A stretch of 63,979 nucleotides of DNA, filler included, from the NCBI GenBank assembly GCA_964501035.1. It is 4 parts of 4 records of this genome, joined end to end, with 100 filler letters (N's around TTAATTAATTAA, not from the genome) between each part and the next. Parts side by side here need not be neighbours in the genome. Positions count along the whole stretch, not along the records: positions 20,867 to 41,544 come from CAZCRK010000024.1; 3 more parts are not named here. One strand, given 5' to 3'. A model generated the notes under the pieces. It did not search any database. It saw only the letters and a program-made list of their open reading frames with translations, and was not told the DNA's origin. Made by a program: the position numbers and the translations under genes. This document shows positions 10,120 through 62,070 of this stretch, one piece after another. Every line of letters begins with the position of its first letter. Within the stretch, counting starts at the first letter, position 1.

Positions 10120-10598
10120 TGAATATTCCATCTAAAGAAATACAAGAAAAGTGGATAAAATCTGCAATGAATGAAGCGATGAAGGCTTTTGATCAAGATG
10201 AAATTCCTATAGGAGCAGTAATTGTTAAAGATGGGCGAATAATTGGTAGAGGATACAACCAATGTGAACAGTTAAATGACCCAACAGCGCATGCTGAAGT
10301 TATCGCAATAACCTCAGCATCAAATACTATTGGTGATTGGCGATTAAATGATTGTCAATTATATGTTACTAAAGAACCATGTCCAATGTGTGCTGGAGCA
10401 ATAATGAATGCTCGAATACAATTTGTTGGTTTTGGAATGTATGATGAACAATCTGGGTGTTGTGGTTCTCTCTATCAATTATGTCGAGATCCACGATTTA
10501 ATCATCAGTCGGCTGTACAGGGTGGAATATTGGAGACAGATTGTTCATTTATTATTCAAGATTTTTTTTCAAATAAACGTAAAACAAGTGATAATTGA
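10119..10598 (+). CDS. tadA: tRNA adenosine(34) deaminase
   Basis: EIPIGAVIV, DPTAHAE, EPCPMC. Confidence 0.9.
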   Translation: MNIPSKEIQEKWIKSAMNEAMKAFDQDEIPIGAVIVKDGRIIGRGYNQCEQLNDPTAHAEVIAITSASNTIGDWRLNDCQLYVTKEPCPMCAGAIMNARIQFVGFGMYDEQSGCCGSLYQLCRDPRFNHQSAVQGGILETDCSFIIQDFFSNKRKTSDN

Positions 10599-10712
10599 AC
10601 TTTATTCTTCTCTATTTTGTTAAATCAACACTTTGAAAAAATATAATTTCACTGTAATTTTTAGTTGTTTTATTGTCTGATATTTATCTAATCCATGATA
10701 TAAAGGATCATC

Positions 10713-12104
10713 ATGAAAAAAATATTCGGTTTAATTTTAATTTTAAATATAATAGTTGGACAAACTCCAAAATATGATAGCCCATTTCTGACAGACGATA
10801 TTCGTGCTTCCATAAAGCAATTGATAAAGTATAATGATATTGCAATAAATGTTGAGGATGATGATGCAAGAATTGATTTTTATAAAGCAGTTTCCGAAGC
10901 CTTTTACATTTCAACAAATAAGTTAGAGGAATTATATTCCAAAAAGACAGAAGAAAAATATAGTCACATTCAAAAATTGGAAGCAAATTACAGTTTAGAA
11001 ATTGTACTACCTGAAGATAATAAACCAGTTTTTACCTATGAATACAAACCAATTAAAATTACACAAAAAGCTAAAGACAAGAATATTCACGAAAAACAAG
11101 CAAAAAAAATGAAAGTTCAGTATGTTAAACTATACTCTTACTTTAAAGATTTAAACAATGCTCTAGAGAGTACTATTAGTGATTTAGAATCAGATATTGC
11201 AAATTTAGAAGCACAAAAAGAAGAAGATGCTCAGATTGAAGTTAATGAGGAACAAGAAGAAGTTTCACCCAATAATATTCAATTAGACACAACAACCGTT
11301 ATTCATTCTGAAGTAGTAGAAGCTGAACCTGATAAAGCTATTACAATAGTATCAGAAGAAACTGATACAAATGAGGAAATTGTTAAAAAAGAAGTCACAG
11401 TAGCAGATATACCTCCAATAGTTGAAGAAGTTGTTGATACAACTCCTTCACATTGCAATATAGGTTTGCAAATGTCAGATGAAAAAGAAAACTCTTTACA
11501 GGTTGTTTATGATTGCTCAGAACCTATTTATGGATTTCAATTTGAACTAACAAATGTAGTTTTGAAGTCAAGTGATAACCCGATATTTGATATACGATTT
11601 AGCGAAAATACTGGGCAAGTATTAGGCTTTTCACTAAAAGGTGAGTCGATGCAAAAAGGACAAGGGTTGCTTGTAGAATTTGAGTATGAAGCACCAGAAG
11701 AAGATTCTGAGATTTGTATGCAAGACGAAGTAATAGCAGGTAAAAGTGGTTCTCAAATATTAGTTGAAAAAGGTCCGTGTTTAATAATTAAAGGCAGCGG
11801 GGTTCCAATTCCTGTAATTGAAGAAGTAGTAATTGAGGAAGCTACGGTAGAAGTTATACCACAAAAAACGAAAGAAACAGTTCAAGTAAATAGTCAAGAT
11901 TCTGAAATTAGTAATTTTCAAAATGCATTTAGAAATGCTCGCAATTCGGGTAATGAAACATTTGAGTTTGAAGGGTTAACTTATTCTACATTAACACGTC
12001 AAGATTTTAGAAGAGCTTTTAGGAACGCACGCGCACAAGGCAAACCGACATTTCGTTTCGGAAATAGAACTTATTCCACAAAAATTAAAGAAGAAGCTGA
12101 ATAG
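10713..12104 (+). CDS. Secreted hypothetical protein: coiled coil, acidic linker, cohesin-like domain, two C-terminal repeats
   Basis: Signal peptide; IYGFQF..VLGFSL segment; repeats FQNAFRNARNSGNETFEFEGLTYST and FRRAFRNARAQGKPTFRFGNRTYST. Confidence 0.7.
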   Translation: MKKIFGLILILNIIVGQTPKYDSPFLTDDIRASIKQLIKYNDIAINVEDDDARIDFYKAVSEAFYISTNKLEELYSKKTEEKYSHIQKLEANYSLEIVLPEDNKPVFTYEYKPIKITQKAKDKNIHEKQAKKMKVQYVKLYSYFKDLNNALESTISDLESDIANLEAQKEEDAQIEVNEEQEEVSPNNIQLDTTTVIHSEVVEAEPDKAITIVSEETDTNEEIVKKEVTVADIPPIVEEVVDTTPSHCNIGLQMSDEKENSLQVVYDCSEPIYGFQFELTNVVLKSSDNPIFDIRFSENTGQVLGFSLKGESMQKGQGLLVEFEYEAPEEDSEICMQDEVIAGKSGSQILVEKGPCLIIKGSGVPIPVIEEVVIEEATVEVIPQKTKETVQVNSQDSEISNFQNAFRNARNSGNETFEFEGLTYSTLTRQDFRRAFRNARAQGKPTFRFGNRTYSTKIKEEAE

Positions 12105-12741: not shown

Positions 12742-13344
12742 TTAAATTTCGCCTGCCCCGATAGCACTAAGATCTCCATCAAGCCAATCTCCAATAAAGT
12801 GATATGCTTTTCGTAATTCATCTAGTGTCGCAATCATAACCATCATATCTTGCTCTTTTCCTGAATGGTCAACTACATAGTTTGGAAGTATGCCACCAAT
12901 TTTAAATCCAAGATTTTGATAGATGTTTAACAATCCTTCTTGTGGGCGCATAAATTTTGTAATGAGTTTATTAATATGTTTATCATCAGCAATATCATAA
13001 AGGTCTTTGGCTAAGGCAAATTGAATTCCTTTACCAATAAAATCTGGATGAACAACTAATCGTAATTGAGCTTCACCACTTTTCCATGATTTAGTTTCAA
13101 TTTCCAAACTCCCATCACCAACAATTATTCCATCATACATAACAACACGTCTTACGATATTGCCTTTTGCACATGTTTTTATTCGACTTATGATATGATT
13201 TCTATCTTCAACATTAGATCTGAAGTAAACTCGTTGATCTTTAGGGAAAGTTAGAAAGAAAGCATGCGATTTATCCACATCGCTTGGTTCGAGGTTTTTA
13301 ATGATAATTTTTGAACCATCTTTTAACTCATATTGAGATTCCAT
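12742..13344 (-). CDS. GNAT family N-acetyltransferase
   Basis: LKDGSKIII, VHPDFIGKGI acetyl-CoA motif; AGGAG RBS before ATG at 13344. Confidence 0.8.
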   Translation of the reverse strand: MESQYELKDGSKIIIKNLEPSDVDKSHAFFLTFPKDQRVYFRSNVEDRNHIISRIKTCAKGNIVRRVVMYDGIIVGDGSLEIETKSWKSGEAQLRLVVHPDFIGKGIQFALAKDLYDIADDKHINKLITKFMRPQEGLLNIYQNLGFKIGGILPNYVVDHSGKEQDMMVMIATLDELRKAYHFIGDWLDGDLSAIGAGEI

Positions 13345-20766: not shown

Positions 20767-20866
20767 NNNNNNNNNNNNNNNNNNNNNNNNNNNNNNNNNN
20801 NNNNNNNNNNTTAATTAATTAANNNNNNNNNNNNNNNNNNNNNNNNNNNNNNNNNNNNNNNNNNNN
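20767..20866. other. Artificial contig linker
   Basis: 44 N, TTAATTAATTAA, 44 N. Confidence 0.98.
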
Positions 20867-38817: not shown

Positions 38818-39018
38818 TCACTCTCCTACTTTTCGCTTGAATAATGCACCAAAAATAATTAATGCACTACCAAATCCTAAAACGGGTGCTGAAACATATA
38901 CCCAATATACAATATTAACTTCTCGATGAACATAGTATCCTAAAATATAGCCAACTGATAAGCCAATTAGACTCATGCCTGCCATGATTGTTGCAAATGA
39001 AACAAAACCCAATTTCAT
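38818..39018 (-). CDS. Small two-helix membrane protein
   Basis: Two hydrophobic segments; start overlaps upstream stop. Confidence 0.6.
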   Translation of the reverse strand: MKLGFVSFATIMAGMSLIGLSVGYILGYYVHREVNIVYWVYVSAPVLGFGSALIIFGALFKRKVGE

Positions 39019-41162
39019 TAAAATACCATCTGTAATTCTGCTAAACTTATATTCATTTTATCAATACTACCATCAAAATTTGAATCATACTGCAATTCTC
39101 GATGCTCCAATATTAATTCTAAATTGTATGGAAGTGAAAATCCTATTTTTGCACCGAGCAAGATTGATTCGTCATAATTAGAAAAATCAAATAATGTGGA
39201 TGAATACACTTGAGATGCAAATGCACTAAATTGAGATATTCCTTTTAAAACTTTATCTTGCAATGCAATATTAAAATCGGTGGAATAATATTCATCCGAC
39301 CTTTCAGAAGAGGTCATTTCCTTGAAAAAGGAAAATCCAATATTAACATCAATTATCTTCCTAAAATGATAATTCCAATCTGTCCAAATTCCAATAGTTG
39401 GAAAATTATTTTCGCCTGTTTCTGTAATATCATTTTCATTTAACTCAATAATGGGATAAATATCTTTTGGGAGAAGGTAATACGCATCATTAACTGCATA
39501 ATTACTTAAAAGTTCACCCTGATTGTCAGAGACAATGTTGTCATCATAGGCATTGGCATAACGTATTCGTTCTAGTTCATAATTTGCACTAAAGTATTGG
39601 GGTAAATGAAGAGCAGAATTGATTTGCAATGCAATTTTATAATCATAGTAATTTTTGTAATTTACCCATATTCCTGGCAGAGTAATTCCCCATGTACCTT
39701 CTCTCCACTTATTGTCATCTGTATGATCGGGTTCTAATTGAGCATAATAATGATTCTCAGGTAACCAAATTCCTACTGCTTCTGCAAAAAATGAAACATC
39801 CATTAATGGAGATGAAATCCATTTATATGTTAAATCACATTCAATTGCAGTTAAGTTTCTTTTTAAATGATTGACACTTTCACTAGTTGACCAACTTACA
39901 GAACTTTCAGGTAGTCCAGAAAATTGATTCAAGTCTGACACAATTCCAATTCCTAGAGTTAAAGGAAATCGGTATGAAATAAAAGTTGTTGCTCGCAGAC
40001 CTGAAACACCCCCACCTTTTTGTATTTCCTTTAGACTTGCAGTAAAAGCTTCCAAACTAAACATATTGTTAGGATGATAATATCGAATATATAATCCAGT
40101 ATTTCTATCAAAAGGACTATTTATTTGATTACTATAATTATGAATCAACTGACCATAACCAAAAGTAATTGGTTGTAACTTTCCAATATGGGCAAAAATA
40201 GTTTTGTTAGCTGAGGTGTAATTTAAATAATCAATTCTGTCAATTACATCATAGACATCGGAAAATTCATTCAAATCAATATAGTTTTCATGTGTTAAAT
40301 AGCCATCTATATTTAAAGCAATTCTGATATACTTACTATGATATCGCGGTTTAATATTGACTTTAGAATAATTGTAATTAGACAAAAGCATTCCACCCAT
40401 TGTAAGTGATAATCCTATACCATTATTAACATATTGAAAGGGGTCGTATTTTTCGCCATAAATGGGTATTAAATCGTATTTGCTAATAGGTAAATCTTCA
40501 ACAATTAAATCATCTAGTACTTGCTTATTGAGGTGGGGTGTATATTTTTTATCTAATATATATTTTGGCAAATCCTCATTGTTTTCATTTAAAAGCTCTA
40601 ATGTCCCATCATGAAAAGAATAAATAATGTTATTTTGATTGGCAGTTATTTTTTTGTTCGCAGTTTCGTTAAAAACAATTGCCTTTCCATCTAATATATG
40701 ACATTCGTCATCTCCTAAAAGGTTTGTTGAATACCACATATTTGCTTCTTTACAAAATATTTGACTTGATTCTGAAAAAATATACATTTTTTTAATATTT
40801 CCACTACTATTTTGAAGTAGAAAACTCCCATGATGCACATGGATTGAACGGGTTAAAGATGTTTCGGATAACTTAAATTCTGAAGATTCATCTAAAATGA
40901 TGGATGTATTTTTATCATCATAGGAGATATGTATCGATGAATTTTCATACGTTTGAATTTTATCACCTTCAAATATACTTCTTCCTACAATTATATCAAT
41001 GGGATTTACTTCATCATTTCTAATTACAACTCCATTTCCTGTAAAATGGTAAACTGTAGCAATTTTATCGCCTGCGAATCCTAGTGATACCATTGAAAGT
41101 AAACAAATGATAACATTTAGAAATTGTTTTATGATAATCCTTGATTGAGTAAACGGAAACAT
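39018..41162 (-). CDS. Secreted protein with FecR-like N-domain and probable beta-barrel
   Basis: Signal peptide; GDKIQTYENSSIHISYDD FecR-like pattern; amphipathic strands, terminal Phe. Confidence 0.65.
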   Translation of the reverse strand: MFPFTQSRIIIKQFLNVIICLLSMVSLGFAGDKIATVYHFTGNGVVIRNDEVNPIDIIVGRSIFEGDKIQTYENSSIHISYDDKNTSIILDESSEFKLSETSLTRSIHVHHGSFLLQNSSGNIKKMYIFSESSQIFCKEANMWYSTNLLGDDECHILDGKAIVFNETANKKITANQNNIIYSFHDGTLELLNENNEDLPKYILDKKYTPHLNKQVLDDLIVEDLPISKYDLIPIYGEKYDPFQYVNNGIGLSLTMGGMLLSNYNYSKVNIKPRYHSKYIRIALNIDGYLTHENYIDLNEFSDVYDVIDRIDYLNYTSANKTIFAHIGKLQPITFGYGQLIHNYSNQINSPFDRNTGLYIRYYHPNNMFSLEAFTASLKEIQKGGGVSGLRATTFISYRFPLTLGIGIVSDLNQFSGLPESSVSWSTSESVNHLKRNLTAIECDLTYKWISSPLMDVSFFAEAVGIWLPENHYYAQLEPDHTDDNKWREGTWGITLPGIWVNYKNYYDYKIALQINSALHLPQYFSANYELERIRYANAYDDNIVSDNQGELLSNYAVNDAYYLLPKDIYPIIELNENDITETGENNFPTIGIWTDWNYHFRKIIDVNIGFSFFKEMTSSERSDEYYSTDFNIALQDKVLKGISQFSAFASQVYSSTLFDFSNYDESILLGAKIGFSLPYNLELILEHRELQYDSNFDGSIDKMNISLAELQMVF

Positions 41163-41340
41163 TGCCTAAATATAATATAAGTGACTAAAACCAATTAAGT
41201 ACAAAACAATGAAAATACAAATTTATTTAGTCTTGTTTGCACAATTGGAAACTAAATATGTGGTATAAAATTTTTTGGTGCACCAATGAAATCGATTTTG
41301 AAAAGCAGATGGAGATGTTTGAGAAGTTGCTGTGATAAAC

Positions 41341-41544
41341 ACCAACCAACTTTCACCATAGTTACTCATTGGTTGGTATTATTTTCTTTGCCTTTTACAG
41401 CAGGAATATATCTGGACTAATTTGCTCACTTTTATAAGCCATAACCTATAAAATGCTGGCATCTAATATTAGTATTGGAAATACGGAAACCGATGTTGTT
41501 GTTCGTGTTGTTCGGATTGTTGTTGTTACGATTTGAACAACGCA
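41341..41544 (-). mobile_element. Diversity-generating retroelement template repeat (3' part, about 41480-41544) plus structured downstream spacer; cut by contig end
   Basis: Minus strand CGT TGT TCA AAT CGT AAC AAC AAC AAT CCG AAC AAC ACG AAC AAC AAC ATC GGT TTC CGT = RCSNRNNNNPNNTNNNIGFR; hairpins at 41430-41453 and 41341-41377. Confidence 0.8.
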
Positions 41545-41644
41545 NNNNNNNNNNNNNNNNNNNNNNNNNNNNNNNNNNNNNNNNNNNNTTAATTAATTAA
41601 NNNNNNNNNNNNNNNNNNNNNNNNNNNNNNNNNNNNNNNNNNNN
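41545..41644. other. Artificial contig linker
   Basis: 44 N, TTAATTAATTAA, 44 N. Confidence 0.98.
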
Positions 41645-42012
41645 AGATTTACAAACTTTTCAATTCCATGTTCTTCAACTTCACGTTTAGATTCGAAACC
41701 TAATTCTTTTTCAACTTCAACTTCAACCCAAAGACCTTGACAGTCAAATCCATTTTGATAACGTAAGTCGAACCCTTTCATAGCGTGATACCGTTGGAAA
41801 ATATCTTTTAATGATCTTCCCCAAGCATGGTGAACACCCATTGGGTTATTTGCAGTAATTGGACCATCGACAAATGACCAATGTTTCTTGCCACGGTTTT
41901 TTTCTACTAGAGTATTAAATGTATCATCTTTTTTCCACTTATCAAGAATCTCATGTTCTAATGTAATAAAATCAACCTGATTGTTTACTTTTTTTAACTT
42001 TGTTTTCGACAT
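41645..42012 (-). CDS. ileS: Isoleucyl-tRNA synthetase (type 2), N-terminal fragment
   Basis: [36 protein letters not shown]; truncated at linker. Confidence 0.88.
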
Positions 42013-61970: not shown

Positions 61971-62070
61971 NNNNNNNNNNNNNNNNNNNNNNNNNNNNNN
62001 NNNNNNNNNNNNNNTTAATTAATTAANNNNNNNNNNNNNNNNNNNNNNNNNNNNNNNNNNNNNNNNNNNN
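61971..62070. other. Artificial contig linker
   Basis: 44 N, TTAATTAATTAA, 44 N. Confidence 0.98.

What the first reader, a model, noticed from the sequence alone, without database searches (positions are those of the whole stretch)
41480..41544. Diversity-generating retroelement template repeat at contig edge
Seen: non-genic minus-strand run of AAC/AAT codons reading RCSNRNNNNPNNTNNNIGFR. Established: DGR templates place AAY codons at variable positions for adenine mutagenesis, and targets with the FGE-type C-type lectin fold end in R..R......GFR. Inference: the genome carries a DGR diversifying FGE/CLec proteins. No reverse transcriptase, Avd or matching variable region is visible in this window; none follows the template, so they must lie past the break or elsewhere, or this is an orphan template.
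Basis: partly seen in the sequence, partly recalled or inferred. Interest (0 to 1): 0.8.

Follow-up and report, generated by a model that had tools for sequence, protein, structure and literature searches.

The report
DGR template repeat cut by contig end
The Asn-codon run is the tail of the template of an ordinary diversity-generating retroelement that rewrites the tip of a lectin-like surface protein in a marine bacterium, and its enzyme gene is missing only because the assembly broke there.

Summary

**What the stretch is.** Window 41476-41544 (minus strand) is the last 69 nt of a DGR template repeat (TR). It is cut by the end of contig C24.

**Cognate variable repeat.** The matching VR lies at the end of contig C2, in a 579-aa FGE-sulfatase/C-type-lectin lipoprotein-like gene. 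An Avd gene follows it.
- All 10 TR-to-VR1 mismatches fall on TR adenines (P about 1e-5).
- The two VR versions on C2 differ at 28 columns: 25 at TR adenines and 3 from a one-codon indel.

**Where the RT is.** No RT is in the assembly.
- Relatives carry target-avd-RT-TR on single contigs; one has an Avd 90% identical to this one.
- Mapping the two contig ends onto that contig gives a gap of about 1.17 kb. That is below this assembly's 1.5-kb shortest contig.

**The flank.** Directly 3' of the TR, at 41338-41474, lies an Rfam RT-14 RNA. Its parts follow the order of the Bordetella phage spacer RNA. Its conserved linker pairs with the sequence just upstream of the TR in 10 related loci.

**Verdict.** This is a new member of a known kind, architecture avd-RT-TR. 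General interest is low. The modest added value is a DGR role for RT-14. This scan has noted DGRs many times on other DNA.

The parts
41476..41544 (-). 3' 69 nt of the DGR template repeat (TR), truncated by the end of contig C24; the 5' part of the TR is not assembled
   Evidence: It is 83% identical to VR1 and 75% identical to VR2 at the end of contig C2. All 10 of 10 mismatches to VR1 lie at TR adenines, and every non-A position of the 69 compared is identical. It matches the TR of metagenome contig L036 at 66 of 69 positions.
41471..41491 (-). GC-richer constant end of the TR with an IMH*-like boundary: the TR reads CCAATACT where the VR reads CCAGGACT
   Evidence: TR/VR homology stops here. 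The same AT (TR) versus GG (VR) difference is seen in G003 and G030. Calling it IMH* rests on analogy with PMC5758913 (passages read).
41338..41474 (-). RT-14 RNA (Rfam RF02921), the structured RNA directly 3' of the TR; proposed equivalent of the Bordetella phage DGR spacer (Sp) RNA
   Evidence: 48.5 bits against a gathering score of 48.1, E 1.1e-5, full model 1-144. It is the only RT-14 match in the genome. RT-14 lies directly after a TR in G003, G039:C80 and L039, and in L036 at 45.4 bits, just below the cut-off.
41430..41453 (-). First hairpin after the TR: a stem of about 10 bp capped by a tetraloop; proposed Avd-binding stem-loop
   Evidence: Predicted in the MFE fold and in the alignment fold, where the pairs are kept through changes on both sides. 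Its position and shape match the Avd-binding stem-loops predicted in 207 of 278 Avd-type DGRs (bioRxiv 10.1101/2023.10.23.563531, section 10 read). Binding itself is inferred.
41403..41412 (-). 3' strand (GATATATTCC) of a long-range duplex whose 5' strand lies just upstream of the TR, in the unassembled gap; proposed cPRT-Stop duplex equivalent
   Evidence: In 10 related loci the pre-TR and post-TR segments pair. Cognate pairs average -14.1 kcal/mol and non-cognate pairs -8.1; permutation p is about 5e-5. The two strands lie 193-214 nt apart. The partner strand in G000 itself is not assembled.
41338..41380 (-). Long terminal stem with a conserved GAGUA / GAAAG internal loop, followed by a short T-rich stretch; proposed RT-binding element and possible transcript end
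   Evidence: Present in the RT-14 model alignment and the MFE fold. The stem sequence differs between G000, G003, G007, G030 and G001 while pairing is kept. The role is inferred.

Best explanation
Window 41476-41544 (minus strand) is the 3' end of the template repeat of an Avd-type diversity-generating retroelement. The gene order is target(VR)-avd-RT-TR, architecture B2 of Wu et al.

**Proposed mechanism.**
1. The TR and the RT-14 RNA that follows it (41338-41474) are transcribed as one structured RNA.
2. The reverse transcriptase and Avd bind this RNA and copy the TR into cDNA, misincorporating opposite adenines.
3. The cDNA replaces the variable repeat at the 3' end of a 579-aa secreted, lipoprotein-like FGE-sulfatase/C-type-lectin gene on contig C2. 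This recodes the AAY positions of its ligand-binding surface.

**State of the assembly.** The element is split. The target, VR and Avd end contig C2. The TR 3' end and RT-14 begin contig C24 as read on the minus strand. The RT, the last Avd codons and the TR 5' part fall in an unassembled gap of about 1.17 kb.

**Shown here:** the TR/VR relation, Avd, the target family, the RT-14 match, and the architecture in relatives.

**Inferred:** the physical adjacency of C2 and C24, an intact RT in this organism, and the roles of the RNA parts.
For: **TR/VR relation**
- All 10 of 10 TR-VR1 mismatches in the 69-nt body fall on the 25 TR adenines (hypergeometric P 9.6e-6), and non-A positions are identical.
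- Against VR2, every substitution within the repeat body is at a TR adenine; there is also one 3-nt insertion, and the few non-A differences lie past the body in the IMH-like end.
- VR1 and VR2 differ at 28 columns: 25 at TR adenines and 3 from the indel. The 5' half of this comparison uses the TR of L036 as a proxy.

**Protein parts on C2**
- Avd: NF033474 at 108.1 bits (cut-off 80); PF22296 at 73.7 bits.
- Target: PF03781 at E 1.5e-54 plus Ig domains. Its PDB matches include formylglycine-generating enzymes and Treponema variable protein 2y3c.

**Architecture in relatives**
- G003 has target-avd-RT(374 aa)-TR. G001 has avd-RT(358 aa)-TR. G007 and G030 have the same order.
- L036, whose Avd is 90% identical, carries avd-RT(373 aa)-TR-RT-14 on one 1,988-nt contig.
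- The C2 end aligns up to L036:426 and the C24 end from L036:1603 (87% and 89% identity). This gives a gap of about 1.17 kb, and the shortest contig kept in the assembly is 1,510 nt.
- The RTs of the relatives match RVT_1 at 88-104 bits. The L036 RT matches PDB 8ub7 at E 2.3e-55.

**RNA**
- RT-14 match.
- Long-range duplex.

**Population data**
- In runs X1 and X2, contigs over the flanks show 0 differences (352 and 474 nt).
- The contig over L009 2146-2230 shows 11 differences in 85 nt.
- Contigs run 55 nt (X1, X2) and 215 nt (X3) past the C2 end.

**Target site**
- A GC-rich inverted repeat follows the VR (z -4.28).
Against: **No RT found in G000.**
- The PF00078 scan gave 0 candidates.
- tblastn with 2 and then 5 more DGR RTs from relatives gave best E values of 2.4 and 0.29.
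- An intact RT in this organism is therefore inferred, not seen.

**Adjacency not shown.** No read or contig bridges C2 and C24.

**Incomplete TR.** The 5' part is missing, so only 69 nt could be compared directly.

**VR2 indel.** VR2 has an extra codon relative to the TR fragment. It may come from a co-assembled strain with a slightly different TR. Indels opposite AAC are reported in PMC5758913 (Figure 4 legend read).

**Decay is possible in this lineage.** A related genome (L043) holds a decayed avd/RT remnant.

**Limits of the read data.**
- The runs were Logan contigs, not raw reads, so per-position hypervariability could not be measured.
- Only 4 VR-area differences were listed, all in run X4, whose flanks also differ by about 8%.

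**Marginal RT-14 score.** It is only 0.4 bits above the gathering score.
Confidence: 0.9

Rival explanations
1. Orphan or decaying element: the TR and RT-14 RNA persist on C24, but the RT has been lost or broken in this organism. The VR differences would then be a fossil of past activity or a mix of strains.
For: No RT is found in the assembly by three searches. A related genome has a truncated Avd followed by an RT start with an in-frame stop (L043). VR2 carries an indel relative to the TR fragment.
Against: - Avd is open and full-length up to the contig end, with 114 aa matching 2-104 of the 104-position model.
- The TR is identical to the VRs at all non-A positions.
- Metagenome contigs continue 55-215 nt past the C2 end.
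- The closest complete relative has an intact 373-aa RT.
- The predicted gap is shorter than the assembly's shortest contig, which by itself explains the absence.
Confidence: 0.06
2. Not a template: the stretch is the ordinary C-terminal end of an Asn-rich FGE/C-type-lectin gene, either an undiversified VR or a paralogue, whose 5' part lies past the break.
For: The frame is open from the contig edge for 35 codons and ends ...IGFRISNTN..., like a CLec C-terminus.
Against: - In G003, G001, G007, G030, L036 and L039 the homologous segment starts a few tens of nt after the RT stop codon and lies in no target gene.
- It is followed by RT-14 RNA. The real VRs are followed by a stop, a GC-rich hairpin and avd.
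- Every diversified VR position reads A here.
Confidence: 0.02
3. Binning or assembly artefact: C24 and C2 come from different organisms, so the TR on C24 serves a DGR of another genome.
For: The genome is a metagenome bin with 1.33% estimated contamination. VR2 and VR1 were joined by 10 N. Metagenome contig L035 looks like a TR/VR chimera.
Against: - GC content is 0.339 for C2 and 0.333 for C24, against 0.338 for the genome.
- TR and VR share three 3'-end bases that differ in the L036 TR.
- Both ends map in the right order and orientation on single contigs of relatives.
Confidence: 0.02

Closest known systems
DGR cassette architecture B2 (avd-RT-TR) with CLec-type VR, as classified by Wu et al. 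2018 (PMC5758913; passages read)
   Same: Avd accessory gene. VR at the C-terminus of a C-type-lectin-fold target. TR downstream of the RT in the relatives. A-to-N differences only. An IMH-like constant 3' end. A GC-rich inverted repeat after the VR.
   Different: The RT and the TR 5' half are not assembled here, so the order is read from relatives. One VR version has a one-codon insertion.
Bordetella phage BPP-1 DGR (mtd-avd-TR-brt) and its Sp RNA (bioRxiv 10.1101/2023.10.23.563531; abstract, sections 10 and 19 and passages read)
   Same: The order of RNA elements after the TR is the same:
- a stem-loop with a tetraloop next to the TR;
- one strand of a duplex that pairs with sequence upstream of the TR;
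- a short stem-loop followed by adenosines;
- a long stem with interior loops.

Avd is present. The RT of relative L036 matches PDB 8ub7 at E 2.3e-55. That entry is titled only 'Reverse transcriptase'; that it is bRT is my recollection.
   Different: - The TR and its RNA lie after the RT, not before it.
- The RNA family is RT-14, not the RT-10 that Weinberg et al. place in BPP-1 (PMC5737381).
- The target is an FGE-sulfatase-type lipoprotein-like protein, not a phage tail fibre.
- The Avd has no PDB match by sequence.
Rfam RF02921 RT-14 RNA (Weinberg et al. 2017, PMC5737381; RT-motif section read)
   Same: Full-length match above the gathering score. The family was defined by proximity to RT genes.
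   Different: - The paper assigns no function to RT-14. It names only RT-10 as likely DGR-linked and speculates about the others.
- Here RT-14 directly follows a TR in 5 of 5 loci where it was found beside DGR genes. Two more matches, G001:C19 and G039:C31, came; the G001 one lies at the TR flank, and the G039:C31 context was not examined.
- Its 'unpaired' linker pairs with pre-TR sequence.
Treponema denticola TvpA (PDB 2y3c), a DGR variable protein with the FGE-type CLec fold
   Same: The target's C-terminal domain matches 2y3c at E 1.5e-27 over residues 340-576. The VR lies at the C-terminus.
   Different: The N-terminal part differs: Big_7 and Ig-like repeats here. The best PDB matches are true formylglycine-generating enzymes (6muj, 2q17).

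Membership tests
Diversity-generating retroelement | TR/VR pair whose differences lie at TR adenines | tested here: met
   10 of 10 mismatches to VR1 lie at A (P 9.6e-6). VR1 and VR2 differ at 28 columns: 25 at TR adenines and 3 from an indel. Only the 3' 69 nt of the TR is available.
Diversity-generating retroelement | DGR-type reverse transcriptase encoded near the TR | tested here: inconclusive
   Not found in G000. Present between avd and the TR in G003, G001, G007, G030, L036, L038 and L039. The gap in G000 is about 1.17 kb.
Diversity-generating retroelement | Accessory variability determinant (Avd) | tested here: met
   NF033474 at 108.1 bits (cut-off 80). PF22296 bAvd at 73.7 bits (cut-off 40). 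The gene is cut by the C2 end after 114 aa.
Diversity-generating retroelement | VR at the C-terminus of a target with a C-type-lectin / FGE-sulfatase fold | tested here: met
   PF03781 at 185.8 bits over residues 321-575 of 579. PDB matches to FGEs and to TvpA 2y3c.
Diversity-generating retroelement | IMH / IMH* boundary, with an inverted repeat after the VR | tested here: met
   Homology ends at TR CCAATACT versus VR CCAGGACT, and the same is seen in G003 and G030. A GC-rich hairpin follows the VR (z -4.28). Function was not tested.
Diversity-generating retroelement | Ongoing diversification of the VR in the population | tested here: inconclusive
   There are two VR versions in the assembly. 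VR-area contigs are fragmented and divergent next to flanks with no differences. Only contigs were available, not raw reads.
Rfam RF02921 (RT-14 RNA) | Covariance-model score at or above the gathering score over the full model | tested here: met
   48.5 bits against 48.1, model positions 1-144 of 144, E 1.1e-5. The margin is 0.4 bits. Support comes from homologous matches in G003 (51.2), G039:C80 (57.3) and L039 (62.8).
BPP-1-type Sp RNA (cis-priming DGR RNA) | Duplex between sequence upstream of the TR and sequence downstream of it (cPRT Stop) | tested here: inconclusive
   Supported in 10 related loci. In G000 only the 3' strand is assembled (41403-41412).
BPP-1-type Sp RNA (cis-priming DGR RNA) | Priming of cDNA from an internal Sp nucleotide, and binding of RT and Avd to the RNA | not testable with these tools
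   This needs biochemistry. The parallel order of elements is the only evidence (preprint passages).

The most novel reading that the evidence does not exclude
RT-14, an Rfam motif with no assigned function, would be the spacer-RNA equivalent of a widespread lineage of Avd-type, FGE/CLec-targeting DGRs.

- It always sits directly 3' of the TR, whether the TR lies before the RT (avd-TR-RT) or after it (avd-RT-TR).
- Its conserved 'single-stranded' linker is really one strand of a duplex of about 10-12 bp that closes a loop of about 195 nt around the whole TR.
- In the avd-RT-TR form, the template RNA is then the structured 3' end of the avd-RT transcript, and the last RT-14 stem doubles as the transcript end.
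Probability: 0.6. Interest if true: 0.35.

Novelty: new member of a known kind. Interest (0 to 1): 0.25.

Why it matters
**For this genome.**
- It links two contigs, C2 and C24.
- It explains two assembly breaks.
- It shows that the organism hypermutates the binding tip of a secreted lectin-like protein. This is a common strategy in marine and other uncultured microbes.

**For annotation.** It shows that a 65-nt AAY run ending in GFR at a contig edge is a reliable flag for a DGR whose RT has been lost from a bin. Surveys that require an RT hit will miss such elements.

**For DGR biology.** The useful by-product is that RT-14 can be read as the TR-flanking RNA of one DGR lineage. The TR-enclosing duplex extends predictions made for the Bordetella phage element.

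Tried and rejected
- **Exact-pattern scan** of metagenome contigs with 27 nt of the TR flank: 0 matches.
- **RT searches in G000:**
  - The PF00078 scan gave no candidate.
  - tblastn with the RTs of G003 and G001 gave a best E of 2.4.
  - tblastn with five more RTs (G039:C80, G042:C13, G030, G007, G042:C14) gave a best E of 0.29.
- **Six-frame scan** for other Asn-rich xGFR sites or AAY-dense windows: none besides this site and an AT-rich low-complexity spot on C3.
- **RT-14 scan of 61 relatives:**
  - It ran with stricter filters and missed even G000's own copy.
  - It found 3 matches (G001, G003, G039), all in genomes that also have Avd.
  - It is too insensitive for an association test.
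- **Laying sequencing runs:**
  - Only Logan contigs were available, and no listed piece spans the stretch.
  - The parts of the VR without cover say nothing.
  - The letters of the contigs that run past the C2 end are not shown, so the RT could not be read.
  - Records 6 and 13 (X1, X2) start to fit exactly at the TR/VR 5' boundary and differ from VR1 at 11 of 85 positions. They may be the missing TR 5' half, but this could not be verified.
- **Avd against PDB sequences:** no meaningful match.
- **Earlier notes of the scan:** nothing on this genome. The word search listed many unrelated DGR findings, and none was used.
- **MAFFT alignment A2:** it puts two of the ten loci one column out of register for the long-range duplex. 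I therefore scored duplexes per locus rather than by column counts.

Full report
**1. The observation**

The window is a string of contigs joined by N/TTAATTAATTAA/N linkers. N runs lie at 20767-20866, 41545-41644 and 61971-62070. Positions 20867-41544 are contig C24 of a 167-contig, 1.87-Mb genome bin that is 95.7% complete, with 1.33% estimated contamination.

Read on the minus strand from the contig edge, 41542-41483 translates as RCSNRNNNNPNNTNNNIGFR. The frame runs on for about 15 more codons to a TAA stop. Eleven of the 20 codons are AAC or AAT.

This is far from chance:
- Only two 20-codon windows with 10 or more AAY codons exist in all six frames of the genome. The other is an AT-rich low-complexity stretch on C3.
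- Of 364 xGFR sites, this is the only one preceded by 5 or more Asn in 12 residues.

**2. The matching variable repeat, target and Avd**

A search of the genome with the stretch found two related copies at the end of contig C2:
- C2:75198-75274, 83% identical;
- C2:75355-75434, 75% identical.

C2 ends with three features.
- *A 579-aa ORF.* It starts with a signal peptide ending in ...FTSC. It has a Big_7 domain, Ig-like repeats and a C-terminal FGE-sulfatase domain (PF03781, 185.8 bits, residues 321-575). Its PDB sequence matches are formylglycine-generating enzymes and the Treponema DGR variable protein 2y3c. Reading the signal peptide as a lipoprotein signal is my own inference.
- *Two versions of the last 130 nt or so of that gene*, separated by 10 N (VR1 and VR2). 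I take these to be alternative assemblies of one variable region.
- *An Avd gene.* It scores 108.1 bits against NF033474 (cut-off 80) and also matches PF22296 bAvd. The contig end cuts it after 114 aa.

In the 69-nt body shared with VR1, all 10 mismatches lie at the 25 TR adenines (8 A-to-G, 2 A-to-T). The probability is 9.6e-6 if mismatches were placed at random. Every non-A position is identical.

Against VR2, every substitution within the repeat body is at a TR adenine, and there is one 3-nt insertion beside the AAC run. Wu et al. describe such indels opposite AAC (PMC5758913, Figure 4 legend read).

VR1 and VR2 differ from each other at 28 columns: 25 at TR adenines and 3 from the indel. 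For the 5' half of that comparison, the TR of relative L036 stands in for the missing part.

TR/VR homology ends at TR CCAATACT versus VR CCAGGACT. The same AT/GG difference recurs in G003 and G030, as expected of an IMH*/IMH boundary.

A GC-rich inverted repeat follows the VR (z -4.28).

**3. Where the reverse transcriptase is**

The assembly holds no RT:
- The PF00078 scan found no candidate.
- tblastn with seven DGR RTs from relatives gave nothing better than E 0.29.

Relatives explain this.
- G003, in the same family with an Avd 74% identical, has target-avd-RT(374 aa)-TR on one contig. The TR starts a few tens of nt after the RT stop.
- G001, in the same genus, has avd-RT(358 aa)-TR.
- G007 and G030 show the same order.
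- Metagenome contig L036, with an Avd 90% identical, carries avd, a 373-aa RT, the TR and the downstream RNA on 1,988 nt. Its TR matches the window's fragment at 66 of 69 positions.
- These RTs match RVT_1 at 88-104 bits. The L036 RT matches PDB 8ub7 at E 2.3e-55.

The C2 end aligns to L036 up to position 426, and the C24 end from position 1603. The missing piece is therefore about 1.17 kb. That is shorter than the shortest contig in the assembly, 1,510 nt, so a separate contig of that size would have been dropped.

The order avd-RT-TR is architecture B2 of Wu et al. (PMC5758913, passages read). Two other DGRs in the same order of bacteria (G039:C80, G042:C13) have the classical avd-TR-RT order.

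**4. Population data**

Eleven run rows from six studies of seawater and brine metagenomes hold the C24 stretch or part of it; one of them may be the source sample. All are kept as Logan contigs.

I laid four runs on C2:74696-75889.
- *Flanks:* the X1 and X2 contigs show 0 differences over 352 nt and 474 nt.
- *VR area:* it is covered only by short, divergent pieces. X1 and X2 show 11 of 85 differences; X4 shows 22 of 126 and 15 of 83.
- *Beyond the C2 end:* contigs continue by 55 nt (X1, X2) and 215 nt (X3), so DNA exists there.
- *Listed differences:* the four in the VR area, all in X4, lie at A or at a TR-adenine position.

This fits a hypervariable VR, but contigs cannot give per-site frequencies. 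The flanks in X4 are also about 8% divergent.

**5. The RNA after the template**

Window 41338-41474 (minus strand) matches Rfam RT-14 (RF02921) over the full model, at 48.5 bits against a gathering score of 48.1. It is the only copy in the genome.

RT-14 also lies directly after the TR in four related loci:
- G003, at 51.2 bits;
- L039, at 62.8 bits;
- L036, at 45.4 bits, just under the cut-off;
- G039:C80, at 57.3 bits, where the TR precedes the RT.

Weinberg et al. defined RT-1 to RT-19 by their nearness to RT genes. They linked only RT-10 to a DGR (BPP-1) and speculated about the rest (PMC5737381, section read). No paper in the searchable library holds both 'RT-14' and 'diversity-generating'.

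The element's parts follow the order that Handa et al. describe for the BPP-1 spacer RNA (bioRxiv 10.1101/2023.10.23.563531; abstract, sections 10 and 19 and passages read).
- *A stem of about 10 bp with a tetraloop next to the TR* (41430-41453). This resembles their Avd-binding stem-loop, which they predicted in 207 of 278 Avd-type DGRs.
- *A conserved AGUCCAGA followed by GAUAUAUUCC* (41403-41418).
- *A short stem-loop followed by adenosines.*
- *A long stem with a conserved GAGUA/GAAAG interior loop* (41338-41380).

In 10 related loci, the segment corresponding to GAUAUAUUCC pairs with a GGG-led segment just upstream of the TR, 193-214 nt away.
- Cognate pairs average -14.1 kcal/mol and non-cognate pairs -8.1.
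- None of 20,000 permutations of partners did as well.
- These loci are related to each other, so the p value overstates independence.

This matches the cPRT-Stop duplex of the phage element. In G000 the upstream strand lies in the gap. I predict it will be complementary to GATATATTCC, G-U pairs allowed.

**6. Verdict**

The stretch is a genuine DGR template repeat end, with its downstream RNA, cut by an assembly break.

The element is an ordinary member of a well-described class, so general interest is low. The scan has noted DGRs on other DNA hundreds of times.

What is modestly new is the reading of RT-14 as the TR-flanking RNA of this DGR lineage, together with the TR-enclosing duplex.

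Three points remain open:
- an intact RT in this organism;
- the physical link between C2 and C24;
- whether VR1 and VR2 are alleles or two genes.

Noticed in passing
G000 contig C117:1684-2670 (L010:1195-2181), outside the window: A second FGE-sulfatase protein (328 aa, PF03781 188 bits) ends 23 nt before the contig end. Its C-terminal region looks like the VR of a different DGR lineage. Against the TR of G039:C80, a genome of the same order, 17 of 22 mismatches are A-to-N. No matching TR, Avd or RT is in G000, so the genome probably has a second DGR that is also lost at an assembly break.
   Followed up: partly
L043 (CAYLYH010000001.1, first 3.5 kb): Another genome holds a 5'-truncated Avd (residues 31-113, 98% identical in protein). 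It is followed by an RT start with an in-frame stop, at the very start of a 151-kb contig. This looks like a decayed copy of the same DGR lineage.
   Followed up: partly
L024 (G003:C4) 10592-11137 and L029 (G030:C74), directly after the TR/RT-14: In two relatives the cassette is followed by a REP-associated tyrosine transposase (NF047646, 95.7 bits) flanked by repeated hairpin elements. In G000 and G001 other genes follow. The cassette therefore sits in different neighbourhoods and may move.
   Followed up: no
L035 (Ga0233445_1029613) about 1690-1850: After the RT, the TR-like repeat turns into a VR-like 3' half (TAC, GGC and AGC codons, with CCAAGGACT at the end) and is not followed by RT-14. 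This is probably an assembly chimera between a TR and a VR, or a second target.
   Followed up: no
L024 (G003:C4) VR, about 13000-13130: The G003 target gene is frameshifted inside its VR by a 7-nt deletion relative to its TR. This is either an assembly error in a variable region or a disrupted target.
   Followed up: no
window 39018-41162 (-): The 714-aa ORF that follows the DGR RNA has no Pfam match and only a weak LapA retention-module hit (E 5e-4, below the cut-off). It starts with a signal-like hydrophobic segment.
   Followed up: no
window 41593-42012 (-), start of contig C25: The N-terminus of a class I aminoacyl-tRNA synthetase-like gene is cut by the next contig break. It is not adjacent to the TR in the genome, because the linker separates two contigs. 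The family name is my reading of the sequence, not a search result.
   Followed up: no
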